A stretch of DNA of 64,000 nt, from assembly GCA_008632985.1 (NCBI GenBank), contig QPGO01000056.1, positions 214,406 to 278,405 of the forward strand. Reading direction: 5' to 3'. Origin of the DNA: Psammoneis japonica. Taxonomy: Eukaryota. The notes beneath the pieces are model-generated. The model was not told the DNA's origin. It ran no database searches and saw nothing but the letters and a program-made list of their open reading frames with translations. Of the stretch, positions 7,516 through 62,929 are shown piece by piece. Both the position numbers and the translations under genes were made by a program. Every line of letters starts with the position of its first letter. Position 1 is the first letter of the stretch.

Positions 7516-7783
7516 ATGAAAAATGAACAGTTGCTTCCTCGACTGATTCTTTTTCTGTTTCTCCTTGCATCTGGCAAGCATGTTAGCTTGCACTGGTGGG
7601 CATGTTGGCTCGCATTCCTTCCATGCGCTTCTTGGAAGGGCACAGTTTTAGACCGGCACCCTTTCCCAATTTGGGTTTCAGCAGGTTGTTGGGGTTTCCT
7701 TGTCACTTGGTTGTGGCTAAATGCTGTCGGAGTGTAAATTGGATCAAGCCGATTCAGTGTCTGCTTCAACGACTTGAGGGGAC

Positions 7784-7959
7784 TGAAGAATTTGCCATGT
7801 GGTTTTATCGGAAACAGTGTTCAGAACTGTGTGTTTGGCGATTCGGAACGGGAAGACTCCATCCAAGATCTGCTCACAATCTTAGAAACAGTGGCACGAT
7901 GTTACAATGATTTTCTATGACTTCACTCTCTAGCAAGCGACTGCGGGGTAATTTATTCA
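7784..7959 (+). repeat. 3' LTR of copia element 1
   Basis: Direct repeat of 1022-1197, preceded by polypurine tract GAGGGGAC (7776-7783). Confidence 0.95.
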
Positions 7960-7989
7960 CAAATCGATTCTTCCACTGGCCATCTGACC

Positions 7990-10617: not shown

Positions 10618-10861
10618 ATGGAAAACCAGTCAAATGGGAACTTCTCTTGAGAAAGTGCAGTGTGGAGCACTTGTCCATTTTTCTTCTTGGGGTCATCTGT
10701 CAATGCCAGCACAAGATTTGTTGGGTGCACCCAGAGACAAATGGAAAACCAGTCAAATGGGAACTTCTTGAGAAAGTGCAGTGTGGAGCACTTGTCCATG
10801 TTTCTTGTTGGGGTCATCCATCAATGCCAGCACAAGATTTGTTGGGTGTGCTCAGAGACAA
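10618..10861 (+). repeat. Tandem duplication of ~122 bp
   Basis: ATGGAAAACCAGTCAAATGGGAACTTCT...CAGAGACA occurs at 10618-10740 and 10741-10861. Confidence 0.9.
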
Positions 10862-13800
10862 AAAAAAAAACTGCACTTGTGGCAAGGAGTGCAGCTTTGC
10901 TGCTGTGATCTCCCTGTTCTGCAATGCAAGCTTGACACTGCAGCTTGAATCTTTCCAGCTTGGGTTGCGAGGCTTCAATGATGGACCTTTGTGTAACTTG
11001 GCAAGACAAAGCTGCTTGGGCTGGGCATCTTGATCTCCCCATCAGGAGAATCAGGTGTGACTTGCACAGACTGGATTCTGTGATGAACAGGGGAGACTCC
11101 TCATCAGGAGGCACATGATGCAAGTTGTGGTCCTGTGAAGCAGGTGCATTGGTGGTGACAGCAACACAGACTGAAGAAGGTTGTGGAGCCAAAGCAATGT
11201 TGTGAGTTGTTGGGAGGTTGACATCACCATCACTCCCCAAACAAGACTTGTGGAGGGTGGTGACAGCTGCTGACTCATGAAAGCTGGCAGCATGGGGCTT
11301 GAGGGGCTCAAGGATGCATGATGGACTTGGAAGACTCAAGGAGGGTGATCCAAAGGTCAGACAAAAAGGTTTGAGAGTGCTGCCTGTGGGGTGGGGCACA
11401 TCTGCACCTTGGAAGGCCTGGACAAGGCTGAGACCAGCATTGAAAGTGCTGCCCAAAGGATGGGGCACATCAGCACTGTGGGAGGTGTGGCAAACATTCT
11501 CAAAGAGTGTGCTGCCATTTGCAGTGGAAGGTGCAAGGTCAGAGCTGCTGAGAGCACAGGATGGGCCTGTTGGTGCATGAGAAGGGGGTGTTTGGTCAAT
11601 GGCACAAGACAGGCCTGTTGAAACACTTTTGGAGTGGCCCATGGTGTTGAACAGGTCAGTTGGGGTGCAGACTGCACAACTGGTGGCACAATGCAGGACT
11701 TTTTGGATGAAGGCAGGGCAGCTGGTGTTCTTGGAAAGTGATGCCACATGATCTGGACTGAGGCAATGCTCACGAAACTCTTCAAGAAAGAGCAAAGTAA
11801 AGTTGCTGCTGACAAGTGCACCAGCTAGAGAGACCTTCAAAGTGCAGAAACTGCCTGATGAAAGCTGCCAGCAAAAAATTGCGACAATGAAACAGGGGTG
11901 TGCAAGGGTGTCATTGCCATTGCATTGGAGTGCATCAATGGCCTCAGGAGCAAGGGAGAACAGATCCTCATCAAAACCAACAATGGCAGGAAAAGCCAAA
12001 GCAGAGTGAAGAGGACTGTCAGCGGGTCCAAGTCCAGCCAAAACAGTGCCAAGCACATGCTTGAATCCATCAACAGACTGTTGACAGGCAAGAATGATGG
12101 TGACAAGTGGGATCAAGGTAGAACTTGGGCAGAAAACTGGAGGCCAGACTTGAGACTAGAAACAAACTTGACCAGCAATTGAGAAGTTGATTTGACATCT
12201 GGACTTGAAAGACTTGGTCTGTGTTGCAAATCAGAAGCTGCTGGGCCATGCTGCCCCTGAAGCACTTTTTGTGTGCTGAGGGTGCAGGCAAGCTTGTTGC
12301 CAGAGTCACAGGGTGGAAGTGCAGCAGCACTTCAAAAATGGGGTTTGGCGGGTTTTGGTTTGTCCCGTTTGCCTTCCTGCTGGCCCACAGAGTTGTGCTG
12401 GCATGTCCAGAGTGATGGCAAGTTAAAACCCCTGCAAGCAAGCTCACAAGAAGAGGTGAACAATCATGTTGAGCCTTTCTCATTTTGTGTCAGTTGGACA
12501 GCCTGGTCAGATGCCAGAGGACAAACAAACAACAAACACAGGAAATGTCATGCCTCTGAACTCTCCAGTGTGGGCCGCAAGCAATCATGGGCACTTCCTT
12601 TCACAATCATCCTCATGGACCTGTCAGAGCTGCAAAAGACCAGCAATCTCTGGAGCAGATTTGGAGCAGCAGACTTGGTGTGCTGTGCAGCAGAGCCAAA
12701 GTTGTGGGGTGTGCTCACTCTTGCACACAGTGTGTGCAGCACAGAAGCCTGTGTTGAGCAGGCTGGTCTGTCATGGATCTGGATCTGTGTCTGCCTGAAC
12801 AGGGGCAGTCAGAAGGAATCTGGAACTTCAACATTGGCAGATCCGAGAACATCCAGAATGTGGAAAATCGAGTCAACACATCTGCATGTCATGCAGCAAT
12901 GAGATCAACAAAATGATCTGGAAAAATTGATCATTGGGTCACTCAAGAAAAAGACATGTCAGAGAACAACAAGAAACAGTGGCCAATGAACTTTGTCATT
13001 GACTTCTTGCAGACAGCTGTTGTTTGGAAAAGTTTTCAACAAGGCAGCACTGCTTTGCCGCTGCTCAGAGAGAAACAGTGCACACAAAGAGACAGTCTGC
13101 TGCAAAGTCAAGATCAGACAGCAGCACAGCACCCAGGAGCCAGGGGACACAAACACATCCCTGACAAAGGGCTGCACTCTGCTGCCATCATCTGGCATTT
13201 GTGCATTTCTGTCCTTTGCACCACATCAATCCCGTGGGCATCGTGACCGCCATCTTGAGTGCACGTGTGCTGGAAGAAAAGCAAAAGTGCCCACACCATG
13301 GACTCAGTCGCAGGACAATTCATGACACAACCATCATGCAGAGCTGCAAAGGTGTGAGTGCTTTGTGCTCCTCACATGACAGAAGCCACATGTCAAATCC
13401 AAAGATGGCATGGTTCTTTGCCACTTGGCTTCTTCTGGATTTTCATTTCAAGTTTCTTCTTTTGGGACGGGCTGAAAACTCTTGCATCTGGGATGCCAAC
13501 AATCTGGGTCTGACCGTCTGCCACAGTCTGGGCATTTGTTGACTTCAATCCCAGATCATTGTCAACTTATGAGCCAAGTCTTTCCCCAAATGCAATGTGA
13601 GAACTGTGCAAGTTTATGAGCTTCTAAAGCCCAAATCACTTCCCACTTTTAAGCATGATCATTCTTTGCACACAATGGTGACCTGCACCCCAATTGACAT
13701 TTGCAGTTTCTTGTTCTTTGAACACATTTGTTTCTGCTTATGATCCACCCTCCTTGTCTGCCAATTTGTCCCACATTTTATCTCTTTGCCATGTTGTTTT

Positions 13801-14082
13801 CAAATCCAAATTTCCAACTGCCACACGTTTTTGCATCTAAATCGCTTTGCAGAAAGTTTTTTTTTTCGTTTTTCTGGATTTTGTTGTTTGCTGCAATTTG
13901 CGTTTACACACCAGTTTGGTTGGTTGCCATGGCGGCAACTGCTCCCACTCCGTTGCTGGCTGCCACCACCTGCAATGGCAGGTCCTCACCCATTGGCACT
14001 GCCCATCCTTCCTCTCTCTCCTTTCTCTTTTCCTCTCTTTTGCATTTCTTGTTTTCCTCCCTGGACAAGTTTGTCTTCTCTC

Positions 14083-15030
14083 TCACCTTCTCTCCTTGAA
14101 CCATGCACCGAATCCTTGGTTGTTCTCTCTGTCTTTCACCACCCACTGACATGGATCATTGTGCTTCCTGATCCCATCCTTGCTCCATCCTTGGTTCCTC
14201 TTCGCCAATTCCCCCGCTGCCTGTGCTGTGCACTTTGCAGGAGCAGCATCTTGCACCATCAGCTTCCTTCTCCTTGCAATGTTGTCTTCCTTTTCCAACT
14301 TCTCTGCCATGTCCATCACCTTGTTGTAGCAGTTCAAGTGCACCAGTGGAGCAAACGCCTCCAACAAAATGGAAAGCCACTCTTGGAGCATGTCGGTTGT
14401 GCTTCTGCCAAACTGCGCTTGTTCCACCACCATCGGCACCACAGTTTCCAAGAACCACATGTGTGTGTCCTTGTCAGCTCTTCTCTTTGTCAAATCTTTG
14501 CACTCCACCAGTGATCCCTCTAAAGCAGCAACTGCACAGATGAAATCAAAGGTGGTGACACTCATCCTGTCAGACAAATGCCTCCAACACAATCAAAGGC
14601 ATGCACACAGCTGCTTGCCTGTCATTCTCCTCCTGATGTTGTCCTGCACATTGTTCCTCTTGTGGTTGAGTTTGGTTCTGAACACCTCTTTGCATTCTTC
14701 CCAGAATGCCTCCAGCAAAGATGCCATGCTCCTCAACTCCTGCAGAACTGTTTTCATGTGATCTCTTCTTGCGGCCAGTTCTTGGTTGAAGATTGTGAAC
14801 TTGCAATGCGGCCAAACACTTTCATTGATTGCCTTTGTCAGCATTGATCCTGTCAATTTCTTGCCCACCACTGGTGCATGATCCAACACAAGACATCCCT
14901 CCGTGGGAGTCACCACAGAACTCGAATCCCCCCTTGTGCACTGGAATCTGTTTAATTCCCCATGTTTGTTTCTTTGTGCATTGAACAAGGCCACCACCGC
15001 AGGACTCATGGCAACTTTGCGTGACACCAC
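14083..15030 (-). pseudogene. Decayed transposon-associated protein of unknown function
   Basis: Contiguous frames ...KEVFRTKLNHKRNNVQDNIRRRM...WFLETVVPMVV...LEAFAPLVHLNCYNK resemble accessory ORFs of DNA transposons. No firm family call. Confidence 0.35.
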
Positions 15031-15863
15031 ACAGGTGAATCACAGGTTGTTGGTTCACCAGCAACTCTTTGTCATGCCCTTTCTCAACCTAACTTGCCGC
15101 TCGACATTTCACTTCCTCCCTCTGTTGCTCCTGTTGCAACTGTCTCCTCCATCTTTTTGTCCTTCCCAATGGCTGCCTCTCACCCCGAACTTCCATCCTT
15201 TCCTGTCGGTTTGTGAACAGGTGACATGTGAAATGAAGGCACTTTGCATGTGATTTTCTCTGTTTTGTCGTTGCTCGCATGTCCTCTCTTGATTCAAACA
15301 GGTGTTTGCATCATTTTTGAGTGCTCATTTCCAACCCCATGTTTGAATTTCTGTCAATCTTCCAATGTTTTGAATTGTGTGCCTTTGCGAGCCAATCCAA
15401 TCCCTCAATGAAGATTGCAACATTGTTCAAATCAATGTCAAACAACACACCTTGTGTTCTCATCTTTGTGCATGCATTGCACCTGTTTCCTGATGCAACA
15501 TCAGCTTCATTTGGTTTAAAAAATTGTGTCAAACCCCCCATTCTTTTGCACAAATCTGTGTCTCTCACTGCCCTCATTTATTTGGTCACATCTCAATCGA
15601 TCATTCCCTCAACTTCCCCGACACCATCTCTCTCCAACTTCTCTCTGTGTCACCCAAACTGATCCAACCCCCTTTTTGACATCGCATGTGTGTGTGCATG
15701 AGGGAACGCATCCGTCCACAATTCCACACATTCTCTTTTGCTCCTCCAATGGTGCCAAAGCATTACACTGTCACTAAGATGTGGTTGTTGTGAGTCGTTC
15801 CCATCACAGGAACACGCGTTCCCTGTGTCACAGCAACATGCCACCCATCGATGATCAAATGGG

Positions 15864-16556
15864 TTGTGTTGCTGGTGGCGGTGTGGAGTCACATGGTGGT
15901 GCGGCAAGCTTTGCCTTCTCTGCCAAGGTTGTTGTCACCCTGCTCTCTTTGCCGCTCACACCCGAAGCCCTTTTAATGTCATTGACATTGGTGGTGGTTG
16001 TGCTGGTTTTGCGATTGCCCGTCATTTGCTTGTTCCTTCCTGCAATGCCTGCAGCATCAAGTCACACCATCTTTGTCATGATTTGGGCTCTGAGTGGTGT
16101 CGTGCCATCTGGCCCAACTCGCCCAGTCGTTGTCCTGCCCTGATCAATCAGGATTTCCTCTCTGAAGATGACACAGTTTGCCGTTTGCACCATCAGAACA
16201 ACACAAAGATTTTCTTCAACAATTTCAATGGGATGCTTTTTGACAACATTGTGACACAGAACCAACTCAAGGAGACACTGTCCAACAAGTGTCCTGAAGG
16301 TGCCATCATCATTTCGCTGGACGTGATGTTGTGTGGGCACACCCACAAATGGAGGCATGCAGCATTTTTCATTCCTGCCTGTCCAGATGATCCATCATGG
16401 GGAGGCAGTGTTGACAGGCACCTGCTTCATGAGTGCACCAAGAAAAGAGATGGTGCCGTCAAGCCAAGGCATTCCACTGGGAATGACCTGGGGACTGACA
16501 TCAAACAAAAGTTCAAGCCTTCCAAAAGTGGGCAGCTTGGTGCCATCCTTTTTTAA
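15864..16556 (+). pseudogene. DOT1-like class I SAM-dependent methyltransferase remnant
   Basis: VIDIGGGCAG (motif I), NQDFL, IFFNNF, NQLKETLSNKCPEGAIIISLD and PSWGG parallel DOT1 motifs (VDLGSGVG, GDF, IFVNNF, HQLKERF..MKEGGRIVSS, VSW). Confidence 0.55.
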
Positions 16557-16634
16557 TTGACCATTTGCACCAACTTACTTCCTGCCTTTACCAACTTGCT
16601 GCTTGGCCAGTTTTGCAGTCCAACAACTTCTTGT

Positions 16635-17260
16635 TCACATGTTTGCCATGTCAAAATTGTGGACTGGACATGCCATGTTCCTTCGATCCAAATTGGTTTT
16701 GTCAGGCAAAGCACGGTGCAGCACTCTTGCATCAAAAACAAATGCAGTGCCTGGTTCTCCCACCAGCAATTGTTTTTCCAAACCCAACCTGGCCAAGTGT
16801 CTTTCACATTCTTTCTCATTCAATGTCACCTTGCAACCATCCGGCCACATCTTGACTGCACCATTGTCCTCCGTTGTGTTGTCAAGGAACAGAAACATGG
16901 TGAAAATTTTGTTTCCCGGAAACAATTCTGTTTCCACGTGATCGCAATGAATTTCCCCCTTTGATCAGAAGTTGGACCTTGAACTTGAAGCAGGAGCATT
17001 TGCCACTGTGTGCCTGCTTGTCTTTTTCTGTCTAAATCATCTGCCATGGGAAAGCCAGGAATTAAGTCCAACATTTTTTCTGCCAACTCAATGCCTTCCG
17101 TCTTGTCCTTTTTGTTAATGGCAAACTCTCCAACAAAATGGTGTCCTTCCTTTTCTTGTTTGCTGCTTGGTGCCTTGTTTGCAAGAGCAGCAATTTGTTT
17201 GAGCAAGGGTTGTGGGGTTTTGAATTCTTGCAAGCAGCCTTTTTTCCCTTCCTGATGCAA
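16635..17260 (-). pseudogene. 2OG-Fe(II) dioxygenase remnant (PhyH-like)
   Basis: In frame: GEIHCD (HxD)...IFTMFLFLDNTTEDNGAVKMWPDG...GEPGTAFVFDARVLHRALPDKTNLDR (distal His and Arg), typical of the phytanoyl-CoA dioxygenase-like family. Confidence 0.65.
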
Positions 17261-20200
17261 ACTTTCTTTGCACCGGCTGCCTTCCTCTTGACAACATGTG
17301 ACTCTGCTTCACCCAGGTGGGTTGGCAACTTGCCATGTTTCTGACATGAGGTTGTTGGCCAACATGCAAATTTCCTGCATCCTTTGACAGAACACTTTAG
17401 CACCATTCTCTGAACATGCCAAATTCAACCAAATCAAATGGGACTTGGTCTGTTTGTTGTGCAGAACGCACCCAATTCAGCGAATGACCGTGGACCGCAG
17501 CCATTGCTCTTCAATGAACAGATCTTTCCCATGCAATCTGTGTTGCACACGGCATCTGTCAGGTGCACGGCACAGACATTTCTTTTGCAAATGGTCCCAT
17601 GTGTTGTGATCTTTGACCATCTTGTTTCCTTCATGTTTTCATTCAATTGGCAATCTTGGCTGCCTCAAAGTGCAGATGCCCCTTTGCTTCCACACTGTCA
17701 TGTCATGGTTGTGGTGTGTCCTTTTGTTTTCAACACCACCCCTGACACAAAGGAACAGTCACCATCCCACGTTCATTCTGCACTCATTGAGATTAAGGTG
17801 CACAATGAACATGCGCAAATTGTGCATTTGTCTGTTGACCAATCATTTTGGTGTAAATTTTTCATGAATGCACAGAATGAGAGCATGTCACACATTTGTT
17901 TGGCAACAGATCAATTTGGCAGCCTTTTTTCATTGATGCAATGAATGAAAGCCTTTGCACCATTGTGGCACATTGTCAATCTCCCGCAGCAAACAGCATC
18001 CTCACAATTCTGGTCTAATTGCTGATCAACAAATGTTGATCAGTGAACGGACAATGTTGGGGTGTTGTCATCTCTCTTTTCCATGACGTGTCATTCCCTG
18101 TGTGAAACAACAATCTCAACATGATCCCACCCAGCAGAATGCTTGCCAACCCATTGCAAAATGGGCCACTCACCTCACCTGTTGTGCCACGTTGCCGCAA
18201 TGCAACCAATGAATCTCATTTTCCTCTGACACATTGCACTTCTTTCCCATCCTCCGAGACGAGGCACAAGTGGACATCTCTGCCTGTGGAAAGTTTTGCA
18301 CAAGGGCAGAGTGCACAAAGGATTGTGAGTTGAAACATGAAGAGGTGAAATGACTCACACAAACAGATGAAGCTACATTGGCCCATTTTCCAGATTTTGG
18401 AGGTCCGGTCAAACACATCAGATTAACTAGACGGAGAATTGATCCTTGCCATGTTCCAGTTTTCACCGGGGATGACTGTGTGCATTGTCCAAATTGCAGT
18501 CTCAAGAGGCATGAGCATTTTCTGCGATGTCCACATTGCAGGCAGGTTCCCATCCAAAAGGCTGTGCAGTTTGATCTTCACTGCAAGGACGTACCTGACT
18601 CTGCATGTGGAATAAAAAATGGCAAGAAAACAAAGGAAGAATCATTCCTCCAGGAAATCAAACAGCACAACGCCAACCTTGTCAGTTGTTGGAGGAACAA
18701 GGAACAACCTCATGGGGTGGGAGGCAGAAAAACTGGGGTTTGTCATTGTCACATTCCAAAAACATTGGTGACCATTCAAACAATGAAAGAGAAGTCAAGC
18801 ACAAATTCTGCCTGAAACAACCTTGCCAGAAGTCAAACAAGCTTTCTGACACGTTCGAAAATGAAATTCTTTTTGTGGAAAAACCTGCCAGGGAGGGATC
18901 AAGGTGTTCCCTTCTCATGCAATTCAAGCTGCATGCAACAGCACATGGTGCCATGGGACCAAAATGCTTTAGAGCAAATGTTTCGACACCTTCAATGCAA
19001 GGCAGAGATTTCATGTTCGGATGCCAACCACCCATGCCGGGACAACAATTTAACTCGTCCATTTGTTTTGCACCTGGGTGCAATGGAGGGAATTGCCAAC
19101 GATGTCATGTTCAGGTCGTGCAAGTTTGACAAAAGAATTCTGGGATTGGGTTTGTCAATGCAGCTCAGAAACATTGTTGAAGATGGGCTGAGCAGTGGGC
19201 CAGCAAGAGAGTTTTTACTTTGCGCAAAGTTTGACCATTCATCTCCAGGGACTGTTGCAAAAGATTTTGGCATGAATGGAGTGATTGCTCAAGGTTGGAG
19301 CTGCAATGGTGGATCAGGTGTTGCAAAGCCTGGAACAACAGAAAAGGAAAAGGATCTCTCTCTGCTGGGTGCAGACAGTGGATTTTGCAACTTACAGTGA
19401 TTTTGGTCCACGTCATGCACCAAAAAGCTTTGCAGGGAACACCAAGGTCTGCCCAAGGAGAAATGACAGATGAGAGGCAAAGGTTGTCTGAGAAATGCAA
19501 AGCCTGGTTGGGTTGCCCAGAAGATTTGCAACGGGTGTTGAAACTCAATGAGGCAGGGACTCACATGACCAGTTTCCCTTGCAACACTTTGACTTGGAAA
19601 ACGAGTGGGAATTCCTCTTGGATGACATCAGCAATGGTGTTGTGTTCATTGATGATTGGCATGATTACAACATTGGCGATGACTTGGTGGACAAGCTGAA
19701 AAGGCATTCGGCGCCAATCACGAACACAACGTTTAACCACATGTCGTGCAACAGAGACATTGTCGGGATTCAGTTGCGCAAGCTGCTGTTCAAGACAGAT
19801 TGTGAATGTGCCAATGCCCTTTTGGAACAACTGGAATCCCCAACAGATGCTTTCAACCTTTCTGCAATGGAGAACCAAGAGGACATTCAGCATGCCACCC
19901 AACACATCAGAGATCACCTGAAGCAATTTGACAATGGAGATCACATGGGCATTTTTGGATTGCTTGTGGATGAAGGGTCAGAGACCTTTTGCTTGGACCA
20001 ATTGCCCACAGCTGGTTCAATTTTACTTTTCACTGTGAGGACACATTGCTTTCCACCACGGTGACGAATTCGCGGCATTTGTGGGTCAGGAAATCAACGG
20101 TGCACCTCTTGTGGCTCTGACTGCATTGAGGGAATCTGTGAAACCAGAAAACCAAGAATCTGTGAAGAGTTTGTTGCAGAAAAATGAAATGGGCTTGTTG

Positions 20201-20996
20201 CATTGCTGGCCAGTGTCAATGATGAAGCGATTGAAGAACAACGGCAATGTGAGCGGAGTGATGTGCTCAATTTGCAGAGATTTCAACACATGGATCCTTT
20301 GTTGACAGACCTGAAGGAGATGCGAATCTGCTGTGTGTTCATTTCACAGTCAATTGTTTGATGTTCTGCGGGCAAAGGACACTGGTGGAAGTCACGATTC
20401 TGCAAGGGAACTTTTGTTTTGTTGCAAAACCAGGAAGATCAAATTGCCCAAGCAGTGGTTGCCGAGCACAAGGTTGGGCAACGTGCGTGCTGCTTTGATG
20501 ATCCAATCAGCTTCCATGATGGGACAAATCCCACCTCAAAATGCAGGAGAGGCACGCACATCCAAGGGTGATTCTGGATTTTGTCTGTTTGTTAACATGT
20601 GTGTTGTTGGGAAGGATGCACACACAAGAGGTGAACAGATCTCCTTGGTGAAGACCAGGGAAGTTGTTCAAAATGCAATTGAAGTTGCACAAAGAAATGG
20701 CAGAAGACCAACTTGGGCCAAATGTGACCAACCAGGCTGCAGGGAATGTCGATCAATGAACAACACGTTGCGGAGGATCCATGCTGCCTTGTGTCTAGCG
20801 ACCATGGTGTCTTGCCCATTTGCTCTTTGGAAAGTTTCAAAAAGTCGACAAGTGGTTTGTGGCCTGATGAATCAGAGCACAGGATTGAATGTTTCATTTG
20901 TGATCAATGGTGTGATTTGTCGACGCATGTCGATGTTTGCTCTTCTGGCAAGTCAAAGCATGACTTGACAAAGCAGAAGGGTTTGTTTCAGTTTCA

Positions 20997-21111
20997 AGAA
21001 TCAAAACTGAGTGGGACCAACCAATGCTTTTAGACAACTTAACATGCTTTTGCAGCTGACTCCAGCTCCATTTTCTAGAATCACAACTGAGTGGGACCAA
21101 CCAATGCTTTT
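20997..21111 (+). repeat. 35-bp direct repeat, 80-bp period
   Basis: AGAATCA(A/C)AACTGAGTGGGACCAACCAATGCTTTT at 20997 and 21077. Confidence 0.85.
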
Positions 21112-21320
21112 TGGCAAGTCAGCACATTTTCACAGCTGACTCATTTGAACAATGTCTGTTGTCTCATAAAACAATTGTGAACTTTTCCTCTTTCCCAAGG
21201 TGCATTTTCATTTCTCATTTTCCTGAGCCCGGCGTTCACCCAGGTGAAGCTGGAGCACTTTGTTGGACAGGAAACATCCTGGCCAGTCATTGTGTCTGTC
21301 AGCAACAAATGACAATGAGT

Positions 21321-24300
21321 TCAAGTGTCCCACCACTTCAATGGTTTCTCCATTGCAGTTGTTGGGCACACCAGGACAGAAAACCCACCGGCTGCAATTG
21401 CATCTCTGCTTGCACAGCAAAATTTTGGGATTGTCTGAGAATCTCTGCCATGACCAACATTTGTTGTTTCAAGTTCCCAGTGCTTGACCACACCATTTGA
21501 AGACATGTCACGGAACGTCTTTGTCTGTTTCTTGCATGACTGTCCTGCAGCTGGTGGCATTTTTCCATCATCAGCTGACACAAAACCATGGAGCACAAAA
21601 GGGCACCTTTTTTTCTGACCAGTTCCCTCTTTGTACAAGACCCTGGGTGTGTCATGCCACAACCCATTGTTGTTGTAATTGGGGTGTGCCTGCATTAAAA
21701 TCCCTTTGTCTTGTGTGGCAAACTCCAAGCAAACCACAACTTCATCATGCTTGGCTGACAATTCCTCCATTGCCGACAACAAAAACTGCAGCAGGGTAGA
21801 GTTCAACTCTGCAATTTCCGGGACAACCCTGTCATTGTTGCTTCCTGAACACTGGCAGCAAGTTTGGGCAATTCTGTTCACAACAAACAAAGGGTGCACA
21901 AATTTTTCTTCAGATGAAGATGCGCTCACCTGACCAACTGTGGGAGGGACAAGAAGGCTGTGTGCCTTCTCAAGAACTGCCATGTCATGCAAACGAACAA
22001 CCAGTTGGTCCAAGAAATTGTCTGCACCCAATGCAACCTGGCAAGTTTTTGCCGGCAGCTTGGCCCAGAACTTCAGGTGACTCTCTTCAATCATGGCAGA
22101 GAAATTCACAATCTGGCCACAAAGGAAAGAGCCAATGATGAGATGCAACAAAGAATGGAACTTGACAGTCCAGAACAAGCAAGTGTTCCTTGCGTGGTGA
22201 AGGCATGATTTTATCTTGAACATGAGCAGGACGACACAGCACTTGAAATCCACCTTTCCTGTTTTTCCATGGAGTCCCTTCCCACAGATGCAAAACGAAT
22301 GAAAAAGCAGCATGTGATGCAACAAGTCCAACAATTCATCAACTCCACAATCCACAGATTTTTCTGCTGTCGTTTCATCATCTGCGATCATCATGAAAGA
22401 GTCCGGAAGTTTGTTTTCTATTTCAGCATAAATGACAGTGCTGGGCAATTTTGTCTTTGGGAGAAGAAAGGGTCGTCTGTCCGCACACCTTGCAAAGTTG
22501 TCCCGATCATCCACTGATCTGCCTGCAACACCATGTGGTCCGGGTGTCAACAATTGATCAGCTGAAGTCTCAACAGCACATTGTTTCCATCTCAATCATT
22601 TTGTTTCATCCCATGCAATCTTCTGGCACAACAAAAAGCGATTGTCATCTAGCTGATTGGAAAATGGATCCCAAAATTCTGATGGGCCATGATGATGCAT
22701 CTGTTGCATCACATGGTTGCGGTGACGGAAGTCGGATGGATTGCAGGGGACATCCAACCATGTCTCTTTGGGCAATGCATCAGGCACATTCTCCTCAACA
22801 GGGGTGGTGTGTGTTTTGCCTGTTTGTTCATTGAATGGTGCAACGGAATCAGGGTCCTCTTCCTTGGGTTCACTCTCTGATGATTCGGTCAATTGTTCTT
22901 CTTGTTGCTTCTTTCCTTTAAAGCCGTCAGCAGTTTTTTTCTTTTTGCTGTCAAAGGATGGATCGCACCTCTTTTCTGGCAGATTTCTGCCAGCAGGTGT
23001 GTGACCAATGATGGTGAGTGCAAGGAGCTTGCCCATCTTCTTGTCACACACAAGTTGACCAAGTGTGGAAAGTCCCCCATTAACTTGAATTTGCGGACAG
23101 TCACATCGCTGACCTGGACAACACCGGGCTGTGTAGAATGATTCCGATGCAATCTGGTCACATTCCTCTGCCTTTCTGTGTGGCGGACATCTCTCTAACT
23201 GTCACCTCCATCATTTGAGGGACAACACCCACCTCAATTACATGCCTCATGTCAGCAATGGTCACGCCAAATGCACCACGTGGGTTGTCGCCCATGTTGA
23301 GTGGAAAGTGAGCATTGTCCACTGCGTGCTGTCCAAACACTTTCCTTGGTGTTTTGGAGCACACAGTCGTTTGGCAAATGAGGGATGAAGCAAGCTCATT
23401 CTCTGATTTTTTTTAGCGGTCATTGTGCGATGCTCCCAGGAAACGTTTTTAACACACTGGTGCCAACGGCTGTTGTCATCCTCAGGATCCGGACCCAATG
23501 CAGCAACAGTGAGCAACTCAATGAAAGCTTGGTTAAAGAGTTGGCAAGCATGGAGGGGATCATCAGAAAGGTGAGAGGGCACATGGCAGTTGTGAGACAA
23601 CCACTCAGTCTTGCTTTGGCTCATGACTCTGCCACAAATGCGTTCTTGATTGAGGACATCCCCCAACAGGGAGTTGCAATGCATTGTGGCTCTGACATGG
23701 CAGCATTGATTGCCTGTCATTGCATGAACAATGGGTGGATTTGCCTGGCAATGAAGCAGCCTGCAGAGCACCTCCTTGAGAATGTGGTGACAGTTGCCAA
23801 CAACAAGGTGCCCAAGCTTGTCTTTCTTGTCTTTCTTGTCCAAGTTGGGTGTGAAACCAAGTGGATGCCAACAACGACAGTCACGGCGTGCGTCCTCTCG
23901 AATCATGGTGAGTGAGCACATTGCAGGCTCCATCCCATGAGGATTGACTGCATTGGCTAACTCCGGTCTTGTCCAAGCAATTGACAAGGTGAACATGAAA
24001 ATCAGAGCCCATTTCCTTGGCATTGGAGCAACGTTGTTGCCACTCTCCATCACCTGTGTCTTGACTTTGAGTGGACAATCGCTGGTCACCAGGACAATCC
24101 AGAAACAACATCTCAACACCTGCAGCCTGGCCAGTGCTGGAACCCAAATTGCCATTGGTGGGGGGTGGCACATGAGGTGACCAAATGTCATTTGGATTAA
24201 CCTGCAGCTTGGAAAGATCACGGAACACTGGCTCAGTGAAAAGATTCTGAAGGGTCTTGGCAAAACTGCAAACTGGGAAAGGTGGGGAGCGATGACATTT

Positions 24301-25540
24301 TGGACCACCCTTCTGTTGCTGCACTGGATTGTTGTGTTCAAGCATCACCACAGCAGTGTGGGAGAGAGGGACATTGGGAAACAGCCCAAGAGTTGCTTCA
24401 TTGCCATGGCGGTCGTGATGGGGGGCTTTGACATGTCCAATCTTTTTTCTGCATGCTCTTCATGCAAAATTCTCATTGCTTTGTCAGTGAAGTCAATTGC
24501 AACACCTGACCGATGACACAGATGCAGCAAATGCACCATGGGCACAATGCTGGGTGAGCAGACTGGAGGCACATCAAAGTCCTCATCAGGGGTGATGTCA
24601 CGCACTGGTCCAAGAGGATTGTGTTGATCAAAGGAAGAAACCGAAATGGATTCAGCACCGGGGGAGGAGGAACAGGCTCTTCCATCGGACGTGAGATTGA
24701 GGGGGGCCCACAACTGCCATCAAGACCGTTGGCTCCAATGAACTTGGGGACATCCACAGGACTGTCCTCTCCAAGGGCAGACACACCATCATCTGCAAAC
24801 AAAACAAATTGGTGGGCATTTTGGGTGGCTGCACTGGTGGCAGCAACATTGGCGGTGGAACGCAATCAACCAGAGCATCTGACGGAGGGTGGGCACAGTC
24901 CATTTCCGGCAGAGGGAGGGCCAGCTGGAGAAGAATTGTTGAATTGTGTGGGAGGAGGTGGATCTGGATTCCAAAGGACTTCAGGAAGGGGAGGCAGGGG
25001 TTCGTCATTGAAAAAACCAAACACAGCAGGATCATCATGGTCGTCAAGTGATTTGCCATCTGGAGGGGGCAGCAAATTTGCGGCATTTGAAGATGCGGCA
25101 AACCGGCAAAGAGACATTTCCTCCTTTTCATGGCAGGGCAAGCACTTCTGTAGATGAAGGGCAATGTTGGAAAAGGGGACACGGCAATGGGGGCATTTGG
25201 GTTTGTCGGTGTTGGACCCAAGGGAGGCAACGGAGGCAGAATCCAGAGGATGAGAGGAAAGAGATGTCCCGCTGGACAGGGAAGATGATTGGGCATTGTG
25301 GTGCAACTGTGTTGATGGGGAAGGGAGAACAGATGCAGCAGTGCAGTGCCAAGATGGGTGACACTGAACATTGGTTTTGGAGTCAAAACCACGTTGTCCG
25401 CAACAAGGACACAACTGAAAGACTTGGTTGGAACGGCGGAACGGAGGCAGTCAGTTGCGATGTGTGCCTGCTGAGACCACATTCAGAAAAGAAACCAGTT
25501 GGTTTGCACCAAGGACAAACAAGACCATCAGACAACATGG
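21321..25540 (-). mobile_element. Degenerate Plavaka-like (CMC-related) DNA transposase
   Basis: N-terminal C2H2-like fingers (CPWC..SRH, CPCC..QCH, CPHC..LH), then LDKTG...MEPAMCSL...WHPLGFTPNLD...LLGDVLNQERICGR...GDNPRGAFGVTIADMRH...KFHSLLHL...NFSAMIEESHLKFWAKLP...AHPNYNNNGLWHD, across several frameshifts. Confidence 0.65.
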
Positions 25541-26842
25541 CCGATGTGCAGAGACAAAGGAGTGTTAAGAAGAGAATCGAATGGAACAGCATGTGCAGCA
25601 GCAACAATCACTTGGGGGATTTGGTGAGGGCAGAAACATGGGACAAGAAAAAGGTGCGATGGGGGAAGGCACATGGAGAGAAGGATGGAATGGGCAGGGA
25701 GAGAAAATTTAGAAGGCAAGTGGAGTCCACCTTGACCAACACATGAGGCGATTTTGATGCAGAAAATTGATTGACACACAATCCAGAAATCAACACGCAA
25801 TTGAACAAACACATGAGGCTTGTCGGAAGGGGGGGTGAACAGTCAAATTGGGGAATGGAGATGTTTGTTGTTGAATGTTTGACAATTACAAACTTGAAAA
25901 ATCAGCACAATCTTGGATCAAATGGAGAACATGTCGGGATTTGTTTCAAGAAATCTTGACGGCCAGTGCGACACCTGGACCATTGGTGTCCCAGATGTGT
26001 GTGTTGGTTTGTTCTTTGCCGCCAGTACTCATCAACCAGACATTGCCTAGATTGCACAAACTTGCTTCAATGCAGCAACAAAAAGTGACAAACTCAGGTG
26101 CAGCAGCAGAAATTTCATGTGCTCTTGTTCTGTGTCATTTCTGCGCAGCAACGGCGGAGACCACACACAGCAGCAGGATTTGCGCACACACTTGCTGCTG
26201 CCAAGACATCTCTCTGTTCTGACATCACACTCTCCTCTCCTGCACATCATCTTGCACATGGTTGGTTGCTGTGCATGCTGGCCAGCTGTGCTGTCTCAAA
26301 ACAAGAGCACACGGGGGTTGCTGAGTGGGCTGGAACACAGCCTCTCCCATCACAGGAGGTCACCACTGGTGTTTTTTGATTGGGTTGTGATCACATTTTT
26401 TTTCTCTTGGTCAAAAAATCCCGTGTTGCTAGAGCTCTGCTCTAGCTGTGCTAGAGAGAGGGCCCTGCAGCACCCCGGGAGAGTGAACGCCGCCTTGCAC
26501 AGCCCTCCCGTGACGAAATGAGTGAGGGAAAGAAAAAAAAAAACCAAACTCTAATTTTTAAGTGCTACGAGGGAAAGACGTACGTAGTGCCGGTAGGGTG
26601 ATGGACAGACTCGTTGACACTGAAAACCGCGCCGCGCCGCCCCGCCGCCGCAACAACTAACAACGGGCAACGGGCTTCAACGATGAGGCTACCAATACAT
26701 GGAAACGGAACAACGTAACGTCTTGTAAGCAATACTCGTAAGCGGCTAGGAAAACAAATCATACCATGATCTGATAGGATACGACACATGAAATGGAGAA
26801 TAGCAAGCTGAAAATTAGAACAAGCTGCCGGCCGTGGAGAAA

Positions 26843-34156: not shown

Positions 34157-34338
34157 CGAGTAAATCTGGGTGGAGCGGTCAGTCCCTGGTCCGGGGCTGA
34201 CGCGCACGATCTGGTGGTTTGTTCTTTCCCACAATCTTATACGATCTAATCGACATAGGGTTCTCTTTGGTTTGTCACTACTACTCTTAGGCTTAAGGTA
34301 CTATCATTACCCCACGCGGCTACATCGGTATTTATTCG
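34157..34338 (+). repeat. 5' LTR of copia element 2
   Basis: CGAGTAAAT...ATTTATTCG; matches 40807-40988 except at 34210 and 34254. Confidence 0.97.
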
Positions 34339-34786
34339 CTTTATCAGAGCCATTGATGAAAAGCTGAACGAAACGGACAAGGAAACAACTCGTTGTAAAC
34401 GGTTGATTGTTGTGATTGTGTGCATGGAACGAGCAGCTGTAGAAAATGTACTGATTCGTACGCGTGGCGTCGAAAGGGGGTTGTCGCGTGCAGCGTGTGC
34501 TCTGTGTCACGTATGACGACCAAAGGAAACAGCTTGCAATGGAAAATGCTCGCAAAGTGGTCACCATCTCCATGTCATTAACGGGTGTGGAACGACTGCG
34601 GCATTGGGCAGCATGCCCGAGCGTGTGCTCACGATGGAAGCGACACGGGATTGATCACCCCGAAGTCGGTTGGCTGCGTGAACCCATCATCATGGCACCG
34701 GTCGGTGTGGCCTCCTGTGCCATGCGCACTCACACCAAATTGCGACCCATTGTGTGGGTCATTGCCTCTGTTTCTCTTGTTGCAGG

Positions 34787-36310
34787 ATGGCAGCGGCACC
34801 AGCAGTGGCACTTGCGGCTTTGGCCGTGGCGGCTGACGTGGACGCGGTGTTGCAAGTTTGTGGTGTTGTTGACCAACACGCTGGGGCGAGGCTTGTTTTC
34901 TATGAAGGGTTTGCCACTCTTGAGAACATTGCTGTTGTGGAAACGGACCATGATGCTGAGGATCTAGCCCAAAGGGCGGCTCGTCGTACAGCAGCTGATG
35001 GACGCGTGACGCTGGGGACGACACAGATTAAGAACTTGCGGGCGTTGGTTTGGTGGTTGAGAGATTTAACGAAACGGAACCAGCCACTGGTCGCGGCGAA
35101 TTTTAACATTGCAGCCATGGCGGCGGCCAGGGACGGCAGGCGCATTGAAAAGGAGTTTACGGAATCCACTGCGACGGTTGACAGCCTCACCAAATTCAAA
35201 GCAGAAGATTTTGACGTGTGTGAAGACGCTTTCTTGAACTTGTTGGCGCAGAAGCTTGGTGCACTTGAGGAGCCGTTGAAGTGTGTCGCGAGGAGGATGC
35301 CTGCACCGGCGGAGTTCGCGGACAATCAGGAGGAGCGCATGTGTCAGCTGCCGCTCGCCGGAGACGCATTTGATGTGGACAATCGTCACGTGCATCGCAT
35401 GTTAAAAGAGCATTTGATTGATGCGGCTGGCTGGGCTTGGATTGAACCATGCGACGCAACAGAAAATGGACGCGAAGCATTCTGGGCCTGGGTTGACCAT
35501 TGCAGTGGCGAAGGCGAATTGAGCAAGCGAGTTCATTTGGCCAAGGCCAATGTCGAAACGTCATTCTACAAAAAGGAAGGTGCACTTACGTTTGAGAAAT
35601 TCACGGAGAAACTCACCAGTGCCTTTGCCACTTTGGACAAGGTTCCGGATGAAAGCATGTCTGCTCGGCAGAAGGTTGAAACATTGCAGAAGGGCATCAA
35701 ATCGGAGGATGCCCGTCTTGTGGCAGCTACGGCCGTTGTTGGCAACCAGCACCCTCGTGACTTCGCGGGGGCGTGTGCTTGTTTCTCATCCGAAGTCTCT
35801 CGTTTACATGCAGGTGCTCAGTTGGAAGCCCGGCGTTGTACGAAGCGCAAGATTTCTCAGATCAGCCGAGGTGGCGGTGGTGGCCGAGGTTTCCATCGCG
35901 GCGGTCGTGGGCGTGGCGGCAGATTTGGCCGCGGTGGAGGACGCGGAGGACATCAAGGAAGGGGCGGTGATCGCACAACTGTGATTGACGGAGTCGATGT
36001 GTCGGATCCTACGAGGACATTTGCCGACCAGGAGTGGGACAGATTGCGCTTTAACGGAGGTCTCAATTGTGTTTTTCAAGCTCGTGAAAGGATGCACGGA
36101 CGCGGTGGTCGAGGAAACCCCACAGGAAGAGGCGGACGCGACGGAGGCAATGGGCAAGCAGCCGAAGCTCAGGTTCAAGACCGTCAAGGTCAAGGGCAGC
36201 AAGGTCAAGCGCAAGGTGAAAACGGTGGCCGCGGTCGCGGAGCTGACCGTGATCGTGGTGGCAGGAATGGGCGCGCTTTCGGTCGAGGGGCCTGTCAATG
36301 TCATGTTTGA
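34787..36310 (+). pseudogene. copia gag, element 2 (open but Tyr-depleted)
   Basis: EPLKCVARR, NGREAFWAWVDHCSGEG and a long RGG-rich C-terminus; ends in TGA in frame with pol. Confidence 0.85.
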
Positions 36311-40723: not shown

Positions 40724-40806
40724 ATTTGGGTTTTGTGTTTACCTCTCTATGAGAGGATGTTCTAGGTTTAGACGAATCGGCGTTGTCACTGCCGTTTCGC
40801 GGGGAC

Positions 40807-62900: not shown

Positions 62901-62929
62901 GGCGCCTTTGGACCCCTCCACCCGCGCTG

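What the first reader, a model, noticed from the sequence alone, without database searches (positions are those of the whole stretch)
21321..25540. A class II (DNA) transposon is hypermutated too, so RNA editing or RT error cannot explain the pattern
The Plavaka-like transposase shows the same TA loss and apparent Tyr->Cys/His changes (RRDCRCWHPLG, GNCHHIL, GLWHD). DNA transposons have no reverse-transcribed stage, so ADAR-type hyper-editing, which would also be single-stranded in polarity, is excluded. The lesion must arise in chromosomal DNA.
Basis: partly seen in the sequence, partly recalled or inferred. Interest (0 to 1): 0.7.

Follow-up and report, generated by a model that had tools for sequence, protein, structure and literature searches.

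The report
TpA-hypermutated dead DNA transposon in diatom
A dead copy of a cut-and-paste (Plavaka/EnSpm-like) transposon in what looks like a diatom genome has lost nearly all its TA and most of its CG dinucleotides to TG/CA on both strands, which points to a DNA-level mutator acting on selfish DNA like the one recently measured in the alga Bigelowiella natans.

Summary
Window 21321-25540 has 19 TpA against 276 expected (o/e 0.07) and 80 CpG against 251 (0.32). TpG and CpA are raised about equally. Host genes in the window have TpA o/e 0.49-0.59.

The minus strand carries a decayed gene of about 1130 codons with 7 in-frame stops and frame changes near its 5' end. Pfam does not hit it directly. 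An exhaustive phmmer search gives 323 relatives, and 12 of the 30 tested carry PF18759 (Plavaka transposase). A profile-profile comparison with those relatives gives 100% probability.

At 8 columns where relatives have Tyr, this copy has Cys 4, His 1, Trp 1, Tyr 2. Arg survives at only 8 of 23 consensus columns, mostly replaced by His/Gln/Cys/Trp. So CpG decay adds to the Cys/His excess.

Three results point that way:
- a class II element shows the pattern on both strands;
- the LTRs of an older Copia differ almost only at TA/CG-derived sites;
- TG<->CA double differences between duplicated segments are far above chance.

The same signature was measured directly in Bigelowiella natans (2026 preprint), so this is a new member of a known kind.

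Open points: no TIR/TSD was found, no per-copy spectrum was obtained, and a young Copia has TA-rich identical LTRs around a TA-poor interior.

The parts
21324..24719 (-). Main reading frame of the decayed Plavaka/EnSpm-like transposase gene (P0001). It has 1132 codons and 7 in-frame stops (6 TGA, 1 TAA).
   Evidence: Translation. phmmer against 1.84 billion representatives: 323 hits at E<=1e-3 and 17 at E<=1e-30. 12 of 30 relatives carry PF18759. hhalign A2 vs A3: probability 100%, E 1e-162 over 1005 columns.
24866..25450 (-). Cys/His-rich N-terminal piece, open in a different frame from the main ORF. This implies at least one frame change between the two.
   Evidence: Many relatives have CxxC...H motifs at their N-termini, and one relative hits zf-C2H2_jaz. 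Assigning this piece to the same gene is inference.
25383..25540 (-). First ~50 codons from the ATG at 25540, including a CxxC...H motif. They are in the same frame as the main ORF but cut off from it by stops.
   Evidence: frame 1.
20989..21142 (.). Two 74-nt tandem units about 180 bp beyond the ORF stop. They may be subterminal repeats of the element.
   Evidence: 82% identity. The differences include 2 TG<->CA doubles and 1 TA<->CA. The doubles have p = 0.005 by simulation. Run depth is similar to that of the ORF region.
7961..26420 (.). Block depleted in both TpA and CpG that contains the element. It is a mosaic of repeat families and one stretch that is nearly single-copy.
   Evidence: TA 76/1244.8 (o/e 0.06) and CG 266/1063.8 (0.25). 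The right edge is seen in the sequence at about 26420-26440, where TA becomes common again. Copy depth is uneven, from 82 to 6535.
1022..7960 (+). Copia-1, an older LTR retrotransposon (LTRs 1022-1198 and 7784-7960, 92% identical) used as the post-insertion test.
   Evidence: RVT_2 E 2.6e-9. Interior TA o/e 0.17 and CG 0.81. RT box reads HVDD.
34157..40989 (+). Copia-2, a young LTR retrotransposon. Its LTRs (34157-34339 and 40807-40989) are identical at 181 of 183 positions and are TA-rich. Its interior is TA-poor.
   Evidence: LTR TA o/e 1.35 and 1.44. Interior TA 0.21 and CG 1.01. Tyr is 0.3% of 2014 codons. RT box reads HVDN. RVT_2 E 5e-12.
58000..64000 (+). TA-poor, GC-rich element cut off by the window end. 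It is probably a retroelement of another kind.
   Evidence: TA o/e 0.12 and CG 0.86. Atlas score 0.96 to a cluster in which 22% of members carry RVT_1. Pfam RVT_1 E 0.013, below the cut-off. YVDD box at 61820-61843.
50001..51300 (.). Isolated island depleted in TpA and CpG, lying between host genes.
   Evidence: TA 2/79.2 (o/e 0.03) and CG 19/82.2 (0.23).

Best explanation
Window 21321-25540 (minus strand) is a dead copy of a multi-copy cut-and-paste transposon. Its transposase belongs to the Plavaka/EnSpm-like (CMCT) DDE group, and the host looks like a diatom. The copy has been driven towards TpG/CpA by two transition processes acting on both DNA strands.

(1) A:T>G:C at TpA (TpA>TpG or CpA) has removed about 93% of the expected TpA and turned conserved Tyr codons into Cys/His.

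(2) C:G>T:A at CpG has removed about 68% of the expected CpG and turned conserved Arg into His/Gln/Cys/Trp. This is as expected from deamination of 5-methylcytosine in silenced repeats.

Shown here: the composition, the strand symmetry, the protein-level polarity, the restriction to selfish DNA within this window, and an excess of TA/CG-derived differences between sequences that were once identical.

Inferred: process (1) is a host-directed hypermutation of silenced or foreign chromosomal DNA of the kind measured in Bigelowiella natans. The chemistry could be adenine deamination to hypoxanthine by an ADAT2/TadA-like enzyme, as that preprint proposes.

A side effect follows from the genetic code. 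TpA>TpG/CpA never turns a sense codon into a stop. It only turns TAA into TGA or CAA, and TAG into TGG or CAG. Hypermutated elements therefore keep long open frames in all six frames, and such frames are no sign of function.
For: Composition: (target TA o/e 0.07, CG 0.32; host stretches TA 0.49-0.59, CG 0.90-1.05).

Family: 323 relatives; for example 3.2e-26 to P0022; 12 of 30 relatives hit PF18759, 9 of them above the 26.3-bit cut-off; hhalign 100%.

Polarity: (consensus Tyr columns: Cys 4, His 1, Trp 1, Tyr 2 of 8; this copy has the lowest Tyr retention of 110 proteins; Arg kept at 8 of 23 columns against 2285 of 2987, p = 2.7e-5).

Loss at every codon position: (TA 5/74.5, 7/72.4, 6/79.3).

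Strand symmetry.

Multi-copy status: (3439 contig pieces laid on 7961-27000; summed depth 860-2580 over the ORF, against 57-72 for unique contigs).

Change after duplication: Copia-1 LTR differences and TG<->CA doubles, 9 observed against 0.78 simulated.

Direct precedent for chromosomal TpA hypermutation: preprint 10.64898/2026.01.13.699255.

Diatom host: named relatives of two host genes are all diatoms.
Against: - There is no direct Pfam hit. The word-index search found nothing and the PDB profile search found nothing.
- No TIR or TSD was found, so the element's ends are unknown.
- Key motifs are destroyed in this copy. The YxDKTG box reads AWTRPE, and the first Cys of the CxxC motif is Ser. 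Catalytic residues could therefore not be mapped in it.
- The per-copy spectrum was not obtained. Read laying showed only 40 of 2015 variable places. Of those 40, only 7 fit TA/CG>TG/CA in the window copy and 2 go the other way. The other 31 fit none of the single-site classes, though four of them form two adjacent TG<->CA pairs. That list holds only sites where every other copy differs, which biases it against sites that resolved either way.
- Copia-2's identical, TA-rich LTRs around a TA-poor interior show that not all of the loss happened in place after the last insertion.
- The enzyme and the targeting signal are unknown.
- Run X1 may be the sample the window was assembled from, so it is not independent proof of the base calls.
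Confidence: 0.75

Rival explanations
1. The TA-poor state is a slowly evolved property of the transposon lineages, not hypermutation of individual chromosomal copies. It could arise from long-term mutation pressure filtered by selection over many transposition cycles, or from selection against UpA in transcripts. The lesion would still be in DNA for a class II element.
For: Copia-2 has 181 of 183 identical, TA-rich LTRs (o/e 1.35 and 1.44) around an interior with TA o/e 0.21. The 58-64 kb element keeps a YVDD box although each frame has only 3-5 Tyr in about 2030 codons. The four transition types among copies are about equal (353-393 places each), so no sign of less-mutated copies was seen.
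Against: Conserved residues are destroyed rather than conservatively replaced. A Tyr held by 74 of 98 relatives is now Cys. The RT boxes read HVDD and HVDN where YxDD is canonical (the canonical form is recalled). Copia-1's LTRs diverged after insertion almost only at TA/CG-derived sites. TG<->CA doubles are in excess. A nearly single-copy stretch (10501-13040) is the most depleted of all.
Confidence: 0.15
2. The changes come from ADAR-like A-to-I editing of transposon RNA, or from reverse-transcriptase error, fixed in the genome by reverse transcription.
For: ADARs prefer a U before the edited A (stated in the preprint's Discussion). A change made before integration would leave the two LTRs identical, as in Copia-2.
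Against: The same loss is present in a class II element with no RT stage. It is symmetric on both strands. Copia-1's LTRs diverged after integration. Copia-2's LTRs are not TA-poor, although they pass through the same RNA and cDNA.
Confidence: 0.03
3. The TG/CA excess is a base-calling artefact at modified bases in heavily modified repeat DNA, not real sequence.
For: Nothing here supports it directly. It is raised because both depleted dinucleotides are palindromic candidate modification sites. That modified bases can cause systematic long-read miscalls is recalled, not tested.
Against: 31-mer contigs of run X1 match the most depleted parts almost exactly: 10770-13512 with 0 other letters and 9181-10674 with 1, at depth 67-72. 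X1 holds 0.67 of the sampled words of the target. The platform of X1 is not on record, and X1 may be the source sample.
Confidence: 0.03
4. The process is DNA-level as in the best explanation, but the chemistry differs. Thymine in TpA is modified (for example oxidised to 5-hydroxymethyluracil by a TET/JBP-type enzyme) and then miscopied as C, instead of adenine being deaminated.
For: TpA is palindromic, so T>C on either strand gives the same two products. A preference for TpA in dinoflagellate 5hmU is recalled, not tested. TET/JBP genes travel with Plavaka and other transposons in fungi (PMC12730594, passages).
Against: No TET/JBP gene or any other enzyme was found in this window. Six-frame Pfam of 7961-21300 and forward-frame Pfam of 57901-64000 gave nothing. 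The sequence signature cannot tell A>G from T>C on the other strand.
Confidence: 0.1

Closest known systems
TpA-specific hypermutation of integrated viral DNA in Bigelowiella natans (Mettrop et al., bioRxiv 10.64898/2026.01.13.699255; abstract, Results and Discussion read; supplements not seen)
   Same: The products are TpA>TpG and TpA>CpA, on both strands. The process is confined to foreign or selfish DNA while host genes are spared. The long-term footprint is TpA depletion with CpA+TpG enrichment. In that genome the TpA-depleted CDS are enriched for DDE-endonuclease and reverse-transcriptase domains. A single-copy target can be affected.
   Different: The host here is a diatom (stramenopile), not a chlorarachniophyte (rhizarian). 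The targets seen here are transposons of at least two classes rather than giant-virus and virophage inserts. Depletion is close to saturation (o/e 0.03-0.21, against Rho 0.45 for their NCLDV region). Old elements here also carry strong CpG decay. No real-time mutation rate is available here.
Repeat-induced point mutation (RIP) of fungi
   Same: It is a DNA-level hypermutation of transposons, made of transitions at one dinucleotide, that kills coding capacity.
   Different: RIP makes C>T mainly at CpA and so creates TpA and stop codons (direction as in the RIPCAL abstract, search listing). Here TpA is destroyed, GC content does not fall, and no new stops arise. Dependence on repeats is not shown here, since a nearly single-copy stretch is the most depleted.
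CpG decay of methylated transposons (5mC deamination). Diatom transposons are CG-methylated (PMC9998398, passages read).
   Same: It explains the CpG>TpG/CpA part of the pattern in the old block (CG o/e 0.04-0.36) and the changes of Arg to His/Gln/Cys/Trp.
   Different: It cannot remove TpA. Copia-2 and the 58-64 kb element have lost TpA while CpG is near normal (1.01 and 0.86), so the two processes are separable.
APOBEC3 and ADAR editing of retroelements in animals
   Same: Hypermutation by deamination serves as a defence against selfish elements. ADAR prefers a U before the edited A.
   Different: Both act on an RNA or cDNA intermediate and leave a single-strand polarity. Here a class II element is affected and the pattern is strand-symmetric.
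Plavaka / EnSpm (CACTA) / CMCT DNA transposons (Pfam PF18759; Kojima 2025, PMC12730594, passages read)
   Same: The ORF is homologous over about 1000 columns to proteins carrying the Plavaka transposase domain. Family-wide motifs are visible in relatives (YxDKTG, GD..SND, CxxC-H, MH..EEG).
   Different: There is no direct HMM hit. The 12 closest relatives among the 30 tested (P0002-P0013) also lack a Pfam hit, so this may be a separate, mostly non-fungal branch. The only named one is from Geosiphon pyriformis. Plavaka termini and TSDs were not found. No TET/JBP passenger gene was seen.

Membership tests
Plavaka / CMCT DDE DNA transposon | Direct match of the ORF to the Plavaka transposase model (PF18759) | tested here: not met
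   0 families for the 5 ORF pieces at E<=0.01, and 0 for the read-through frame P0001 at E<=10.
Plavaka / CMCT DDE DNA transposon | Sequence homology to proteins that carry the Plavaka transposase domain | tested here: met
   phmmer E-values of 2.4e-34 to 7e-18 to nine relatives that pass the PF18759 cut-off. 12 of 30 tested relatives hit PF18759 at E<=1e-3. hhalign of the close group against the Plavaka-positive group gives 100% probability, E 1e-162, over 1005 columns.
Plavaka / CMCT DDE DNA transposon | [quoted passage not shown] | tested here: inconclusive
   Relatives show conserved YxDKTG, GD, CxxCH and MH..EEG boxes. In this copy the GD aspartate (D354) and H483 survive. The DKTG box reads AWTRPE, the first Cys of CxxC is Ser, and the stretch after H483 is broken by 5 stops. 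I did not map the catalytic triad formally. The PDB profile search gave 0 hits.
Plavaka / CMCT DDE DNA transposon | Terminal inverted repeats (TGT..ACA or CATCA..TGATG) with 2-3 bp target-site duplications | tested here: inconclusive
   No inverted repeat frames the ORF. Alignment of the reverse complement of the right edge against 7900-21300 scored no better than shuffles, including in purine/pyrimidine coding. The element's ends are unknown, and the termini would themselves be mutated.
Plavaka / CMCT DDE DNA transposon | Present in multiple copies in the genome | tested here: met
   Summed contig depth over 21296-25740 is 860-2580, against 57-72 for unique contigs. Of the 3439 pieces laid on 7961-27000, 1207 are under 90% identical.
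TpA-directed hypermutation (Bigelowiella type) | TpA depletion coupled to TpG+CpA enrichment | tested here: met
   Target TA o/e 0.07, TG 1.60, CA 1.82. The same holds in four other elements in the window.
TpA-directed hypermutation (Bigelowiella type) | Both products are present (TpG and CpA), meaning both strands are hit | tested here: met
   TG 434 and CA 463. Tyr became both Cys (4) and His (1).
TpA-directed hypermutation (Bigelowiella type) | Confined to foreign or selfish DNA, with host genes spared | tested here: met
   Within this one window, host stretches have TA o/e 0.49-0.59 and transposon stretches 0.03-0.21, with edges resolved in 100-500 nt bins. This was not tested genome-wide because no genome is held.
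TpA-directed hypermutation (Bigelowiella type) | Mutations are almost exclusively A:T>G:C | tested here: inconclusive
   The target also lost CpG (o/e 0.32), which is C:G>T:A. Copia-2 and the 58-64 kb element lost TpA with CpG near normal. This suggests a separate, slower CpG process, but the two cannot be separated in the target itself.
TpA-directed hypermutation (Bigelowiella type) | Elevated de novo mutation rate measured in real time | not testable with these tools
   This needs mutation-accumulation lines or pedigrees of this organism.
RIP (fungal repeat-induced point mutation) | C>T at CpA, giving a gain of TpA and a fall in GC | tested here: not met
   TpA is lost, not gained. CpA and TpG are in excess, and GC in the block is 0.46-0.53.
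ADAR / reverse-transcription-borne editing | Needs an RNA or cDNA stage and leaves a single-strand polarity | tested here: not met
   The element is class II and the pattern is strand-symmetric.

The most novel reading that the evidence does not exclude
A TpA-directed DNA-editing defence is shared by distant SAR lineages (diatoms and chlorarachniophytes) and acts on every class of selfish DNA: LTR, RT-bearing and cut-and-paste elements as well as integrated viruses. It runs much faster than CpG decay and spares or is excluded from LTRs. Because it cannot create stop codons, it leaves genomes full of long 'ghost' ORFs poor in Tyr and rich in Cys/His. If so, comparing the gene sets of the two lineages could name the enzyme, which would be a natural DNA adenine (or thymine) editor.
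Probability: 0.45. Interest if true: 0.8.

Novelty: new member of a known kind. Interest (0 to 1): 0.6.

Why it matters
Until a 2026 preprint on Bigelowiella natans I know of no report of a eukaryotic process that mutates TpA to TpG/CpA in selfish DNA (recalled; no dedicated search was run). This window shows the same signature close to saturation in what looks like a diatom. It appears in a cut-and-paste transposon, in two Copia elements and in one further RT-like element.

This matters for four reasons.
- It suggests the process is not a peculiarity of one alga.
- It gives a second lineage for comparative hunting of the enzyme, which would be a possible natural A:T>G:C DNA editor.
- It warns annotators that such regions produce long stop-free ORFs and Cys/His-rich pseudo-proteins that escape HMMs. 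Here no Pfam hit was obtained, and only exhaustive phmmer found relatives.
- It shows TpA loss and CpG decay to be separable clocks for dating transposon insertions.

In the held library I found no paper describing this in diatoms. The searches were: diatom + transposable elements + hypermutation, diatom + repeat-induced point mutation, TpA/TpG/CpA + hypermutation + transposable elements, and diatom + TpA (swamped by unrelated meanings of TPA).

Tried and rejected
- Direct Pfam scans of the ORF pieces and of the read-through frame gave no family.
- The word-index homologue search with P0001 gave no hit at E<=0.01. The exhaustive search was needed.
- A profile of alignment A1 against PDB sequences gave 0 hits at E<=1.
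- The TIR search found nothing above chance.
- Six-frame Pfam of 7961-21300 gave only a sub-threshold PhyH match (E 0.0082, 16.9 bits against a cut-off of 22), which I take as chance. The three forward frames of 57901-64000 gave nothing.
- The self-comparison of the window found no second copy of the element, only the two LTR pairs, two tandem pairs and one 59-nt Copia-Copia match. No within-window spectrum was therefore possible.
- Read laying listed only 40 of 2015 variable places, so the class II spectrum could not be derived from the run.
- No RNA holder was listed for the stretch.
- No whole genome is held.
- The Atlas search with the Dis3 ORF gave no useful taxonomy.
- Two look-ups of earlier findings returned nothing.
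- I considered that the window might be Bigelowiella natans itself and rejected it. Named relatives of two host genes are all diatoms, and host genes here are long and nearly intron-free. That B. natans is intron-rich is recalled, not tested.
- I considered UV TA photoproducts and 6mA as causes. I dropped them for lack of any transposon specificity or evidence.
- One search used a wrong frame and was redone.


Full report
WHAT IS THERE. The window is eukaryotic. It holds host genes for Dis3/Rrp44 (29053-32458), a PEP-utilising dikinase (46837-49059, minus strand), an EF-hand protein and an arrestin-domain protein, plus two Copia-type elements with RVT_2 matches. Named relatives of the dikinase are diatoms: Nitzschia inconspicua at 74% and a Thalassiosira at 67%. 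All named relatives of the Dis3 ORF are also diatoms: Nitzschia 55-57%, Cylindrotheca 54-56%, Pseudo-nitzschia 54%, Seminavis 49% and Amphora 47%. I therefore treat the host as a diatom with no close named relative. No whole genome is held.

THE OBSERVATION. In 2-kb and 500-bp bins the window falls into two states. Host stretches have TpA o/e 0.49-0.59 and CpG 0.90-1.05. Transposon stretches are far lower:
- The block 7961-26420 has TpA 76/1244.8 (0.06) and CpG 266/1063.8 (0.25), with TpG 1.69 and CpA 1.75.
- The target 21321-25540 has TpA 19/275.8 (0.07), CpG 80/251.2 (0.32), TpG 1.60 and CpA 1.82.
The loss is equal at all three codon positions: 5/74.5, 7/72.4 and 6/79.3. The block's right edge is visible at about 26420-26440, where TA becomes common again.

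WHAT THE ORF IS. On the minus strand one frame runs from 24719 to 21324, giving 1132 codons with 6 TGA and 1 TAA in frame (P0001). Upstream, a Cys/His-rich piece is open in another frame (24866-25450). The ATG at 25540 opens about 50 codons in the main frame. The gene is therefore broken by stops and by frame changes.

Pfam gives nothing, even at E<=10. The word-index search also gives nothing. Exhaustive phmmer against 1.84 billion representatives gives 323 relatives at E<=1e-3, 105 at <=1e-10 and 17 at <=1e-30. They are typically 1000-1400 residues long.

Of 30 relatives scanned, 12 match PF18759 (Plavaka transposase) at E<=1e-3, and 9 of these are above the 26.3-bit cut-off. The 12 closest among them have no Pfam family. 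A profile of the close group (A2, with P0001 first) aligns to a profile of the nine Plavaka-positive proteins (A3) with probability 100% and E 1e-162 over 1005 columns.

Kojima 2025 (PMC12730594, passages read) places Plavaka in the CACTA/EnSpm-Mirage-Chapaev-Transib clade of DDE cut-and-paste transposons. That paper gives it C(2)C and H(3-4)H motifs, termini TGT..ACA or CATCA..TGATG, and 2-3 bp TSDs.

The relatives show conserved YxDKTG, GD..SND, CxxC-H and MH..EEG boxes. In this copy several are destroyed: AWTRPE stands for YxDKTG, Ser replaces the first Cys, and five stops follow the MH box. No TIR or TSD was found. Only one close relative carries a name, a hypothetical protein of Geosiphon pyriformis.

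Contigs of run X1 laid at >=80% identity show the element is multi-copy. Summed depth is 860-2580 over the ORF, against 57-72 for unique contigs. Verdict: a dead copy of a class II, Plavaka/EnSpm-like family. Membership rests on homology. The structural hallmarks are untested or lost.

POLARITY OF THE CHANGES. P0001 is 0.4% Tyr, 5.0% Cys, 4.9% His and 4.6% Arg. In the first 59 relatives listed these are mostly 2-3.5% Tyr, about 2-3% Cys, about 2-4.5% His and about 5-8% Arg.

I defined consensus columns from pairwise alignments, requiring at least 6 relatives and a plurality of at least 40%. At the 8 Tyr columns P0001 has Cys 4 (TGT/TGC), His 1 (CAT), Trp 1 and Tyr 2. The same procedure on 109 relatives gives Tyr kept at 955 of 1381 columns and Cys/His at 63 of 1381 (Fisher p = 1.2e-5). 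P0001 has the lowest Tyr retention of the 110 proteins. A stricter threshold gave Cys 4, His 1 and Tyr 1 of 6.

Arg is kept at 8 of 23 consensus columns, against 2285 of 2987 in relatives (p = 2.7e-5). Seven of the 15 losses are His (3), Gln (2), Cys (1) or Trp (1), which is what CGN>CAN/TGN gives.

In RRDCRCWHPLG the His replaces a consensus Arg. Both strands are hit, because changes occur on the coding strand (Tyr>Cys, Arg>Cys/Trp) and on its complement (Tyr>His, Arg>His/Gln).

IS IT A DNA-LEVEL, POST-INSERTION PROCESS? There are three lines of evidence beyond the class II argument.

(a) Copia-1's LTRs (1022-1198 and 7784-7960) were identical at insertion and now differ at 12 events in 177 bp. 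These are TA<->TG 4, TA<->CA 3, CG<->CA 1, CG<->TG 1, TG<->CA doubles 2 and transversion 1. There is no transition outside a pyrimidine-purine step, although only about 47% of sites lie in such steps.

(b) A TG in one copy facing CA in the other is the mark of one ancestral TA (or CG) resolved differently after duplication. In five duplicated pairs (the Copia-1 LTRs and four tandem pairs inside the block) there are 9 such doubles. The mean in 20000 simulations that keep each pair's numbers of transitions and transversions is 0.78, and no simulation reached 9. The pair 20989-21142, just below the transposase ORF, has 2 (p = 0.005).

(c) A 2026 preprint (10.64898/2026.01.13.699255; abstract, Results and Discussion read; supplements not seen) measured this spectrum directly. 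In 15 mutation-accumulation lines of Bigelowiella natans, 231 of 302 nuclear mutations fell in two integrated viral regions. 230 of those were A>G or T>C and all of these were at TpA. The rates were about 1000-fold above the rest of the genome. TpA-depleted CDS were enriched for DDE-endonuclease and RT domains. The authors propose an ADAT2-like adenine deaminase.

WHAT DOES NOT FIT NEATLY.

(1) Copia-2 (34157-40989) has LTRs identical at 181 of 183 positions, and they are TA-rich (o/e 1.35 and 1.44). Its interior has TA o/e 0.21 with CpG 1.01 and only 6 Tyr in 2014 codons. Its RT box reads HVDN and a conserved LYGLK motif reads LHGLK. Copia-1 reads HVDD (the canonical YxDD box is recalled). 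The interior is therefore hypermutated and dead, yet the LTRs are untouched. Either the loss predates this insertion (propagation in trans with selection on the LTRs), or the LTRs are excluded from the process, or the LTRs are homogenised. I cannot tell which.

(2) The stretch 10501-13040 is close to single-copy in X1 (depth 82-105) but is the most depleted (TA o/e 0.02, CG 0.04 in 10001-12000). The process is therefore not obviously repeat-induced. This matches the single-copy target in B. natans.

(3) Read laying showed 40 of 2015 variable places, namely those where every other copy differs from the window. Only 7 fit TA/CG>TG/CA in the window copy and 2 go the other way. The other 31 fit none of the single-site classes, though four of them form two adjacent TG<->CA pairs. 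That subset is biased against sites that resolved either way, so it neither supports nor refutes per-copy hypermutation. Across all places, transitions outnumber transversions 1498 to 514, and the four transition types are about equal at 353-393 each. This is what similarly saturated copies would give.

A CONSEQUENCE WORTH NOTING. TpA>TpG/CpA cannot turn any sense codon into a stop. TAA becomes TGA or CAA, and TAG becomes TGG or CAG. This follows from the genetic code. It explains the 55 ORFs of at least 60 codons in 6 kb around the target and the 2014-codon frame of the dead Copia-2 (one internal stop). It means open frames here are no evidence of function.

COMPARISON AND NOVELTY. The chemistry is the reverse of fungal RIP, because TpA is destroyed rather than created. 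It is not ADAR/APOBEC-like in polarity or in its need for an RNA or cDNA stage. The CpG component is ordinary methyl-cytosine decay. Diatom transposons are CG-methylated, and some diatoms carry RID-related DNMT4 genes of unknown function (PMC9998398, passages). The TpA component matches the B. natans process.

My searches of the held library found no description of this in diatoms. I rate it a new member of a known kind. It shows the same signature in another SAR lineage, on transposons of several classes, near saturation, and separable from CpG decay.

VERDICT. Confidence in the combined explanation is 0.75. Interest is 0.6.

Noticed in passing
34157-40989 (LTRs 34157-34339 and 40807-40989): The young Copia has LTRs identical at 181 of 183 positions with TA o/e 1.35/1.44. 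Its interior has TA o/e 0.21, 0.3% Tyr and an HVDN RT box. TA density drops within about 100-200 bp of each LTR edge. Hypermutation either spares LTRs or predates the insertion.
   Followed up: partly
10501-13040: This stretch is nearly single-copy in run X1 (depth 82-105, with contigs matching at 0-1 differences). It nevertheless has the most extreme loss in the window (TA o/e 0.02 and CG 0.04 in 10001-12000) and no recognisable protein domain.
   Followed up: partly
58000-64000: A GC-rich (0.57-0.61) element with TA o/e 0.12 but near-normal CpG. There is an RT-like lead (Atlas 0.96; Pfam RVT_1 E 0.013, below the cut-off). A YVDD box is kept at 61820-61843 although each frame has only 3-5 Tyr. 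The C-terminal stretch at 63404-63942 reminds me of a tyrosine recombinase (recalled motifs, not tested), so this may be a DIRS-like element.
   Followed up: partly
whole window, e.g. 20500-26500: TA-depleted DNA has almost only TGA stops and therefore long ORFs in all six frames: 55 ORFs of at least 60 codons in 6 kb. TpA>TpG/CpA cannot create stops, so gene callers will produce Cys/His-rich ghost proteins here.
   Followed up: yes
50001-51300: An isolated 1.3-kb island between host genes has TA 2/79.2 and CG 19/82.2. It is probably a transposon fragment and was not identified.
   Followed up: no
just 3' of the 5' LTRs (after 1198 and after 34339): Just after the 5' LTR both Copias carry a similar primer-binding-site-like motif. 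It begins TATCAGAGCC in Copia-2 and TGTCAGAGCC in Copia-1, which is a TA>TG difference inside a probably functional site (the PBS identity is recalled).
   Followed up: no
9866-10500: This bin has by far the highest summed contig depth in run X1 (6535, against 57-72 for unique contigs). It is a very high-copy short repeat inside the depleted block.
   Followed up: no
46837-49059 (minus strand): After diatoms, the next relatives of the host dikinase (annotated PEP synthase / pyruvate, water dikinase in relatives) are bacteria at about 60% identity, and several of the named ones are Myxococcota. This may reflect an old bacterial origin of the diatom gene.
   Followed up: no
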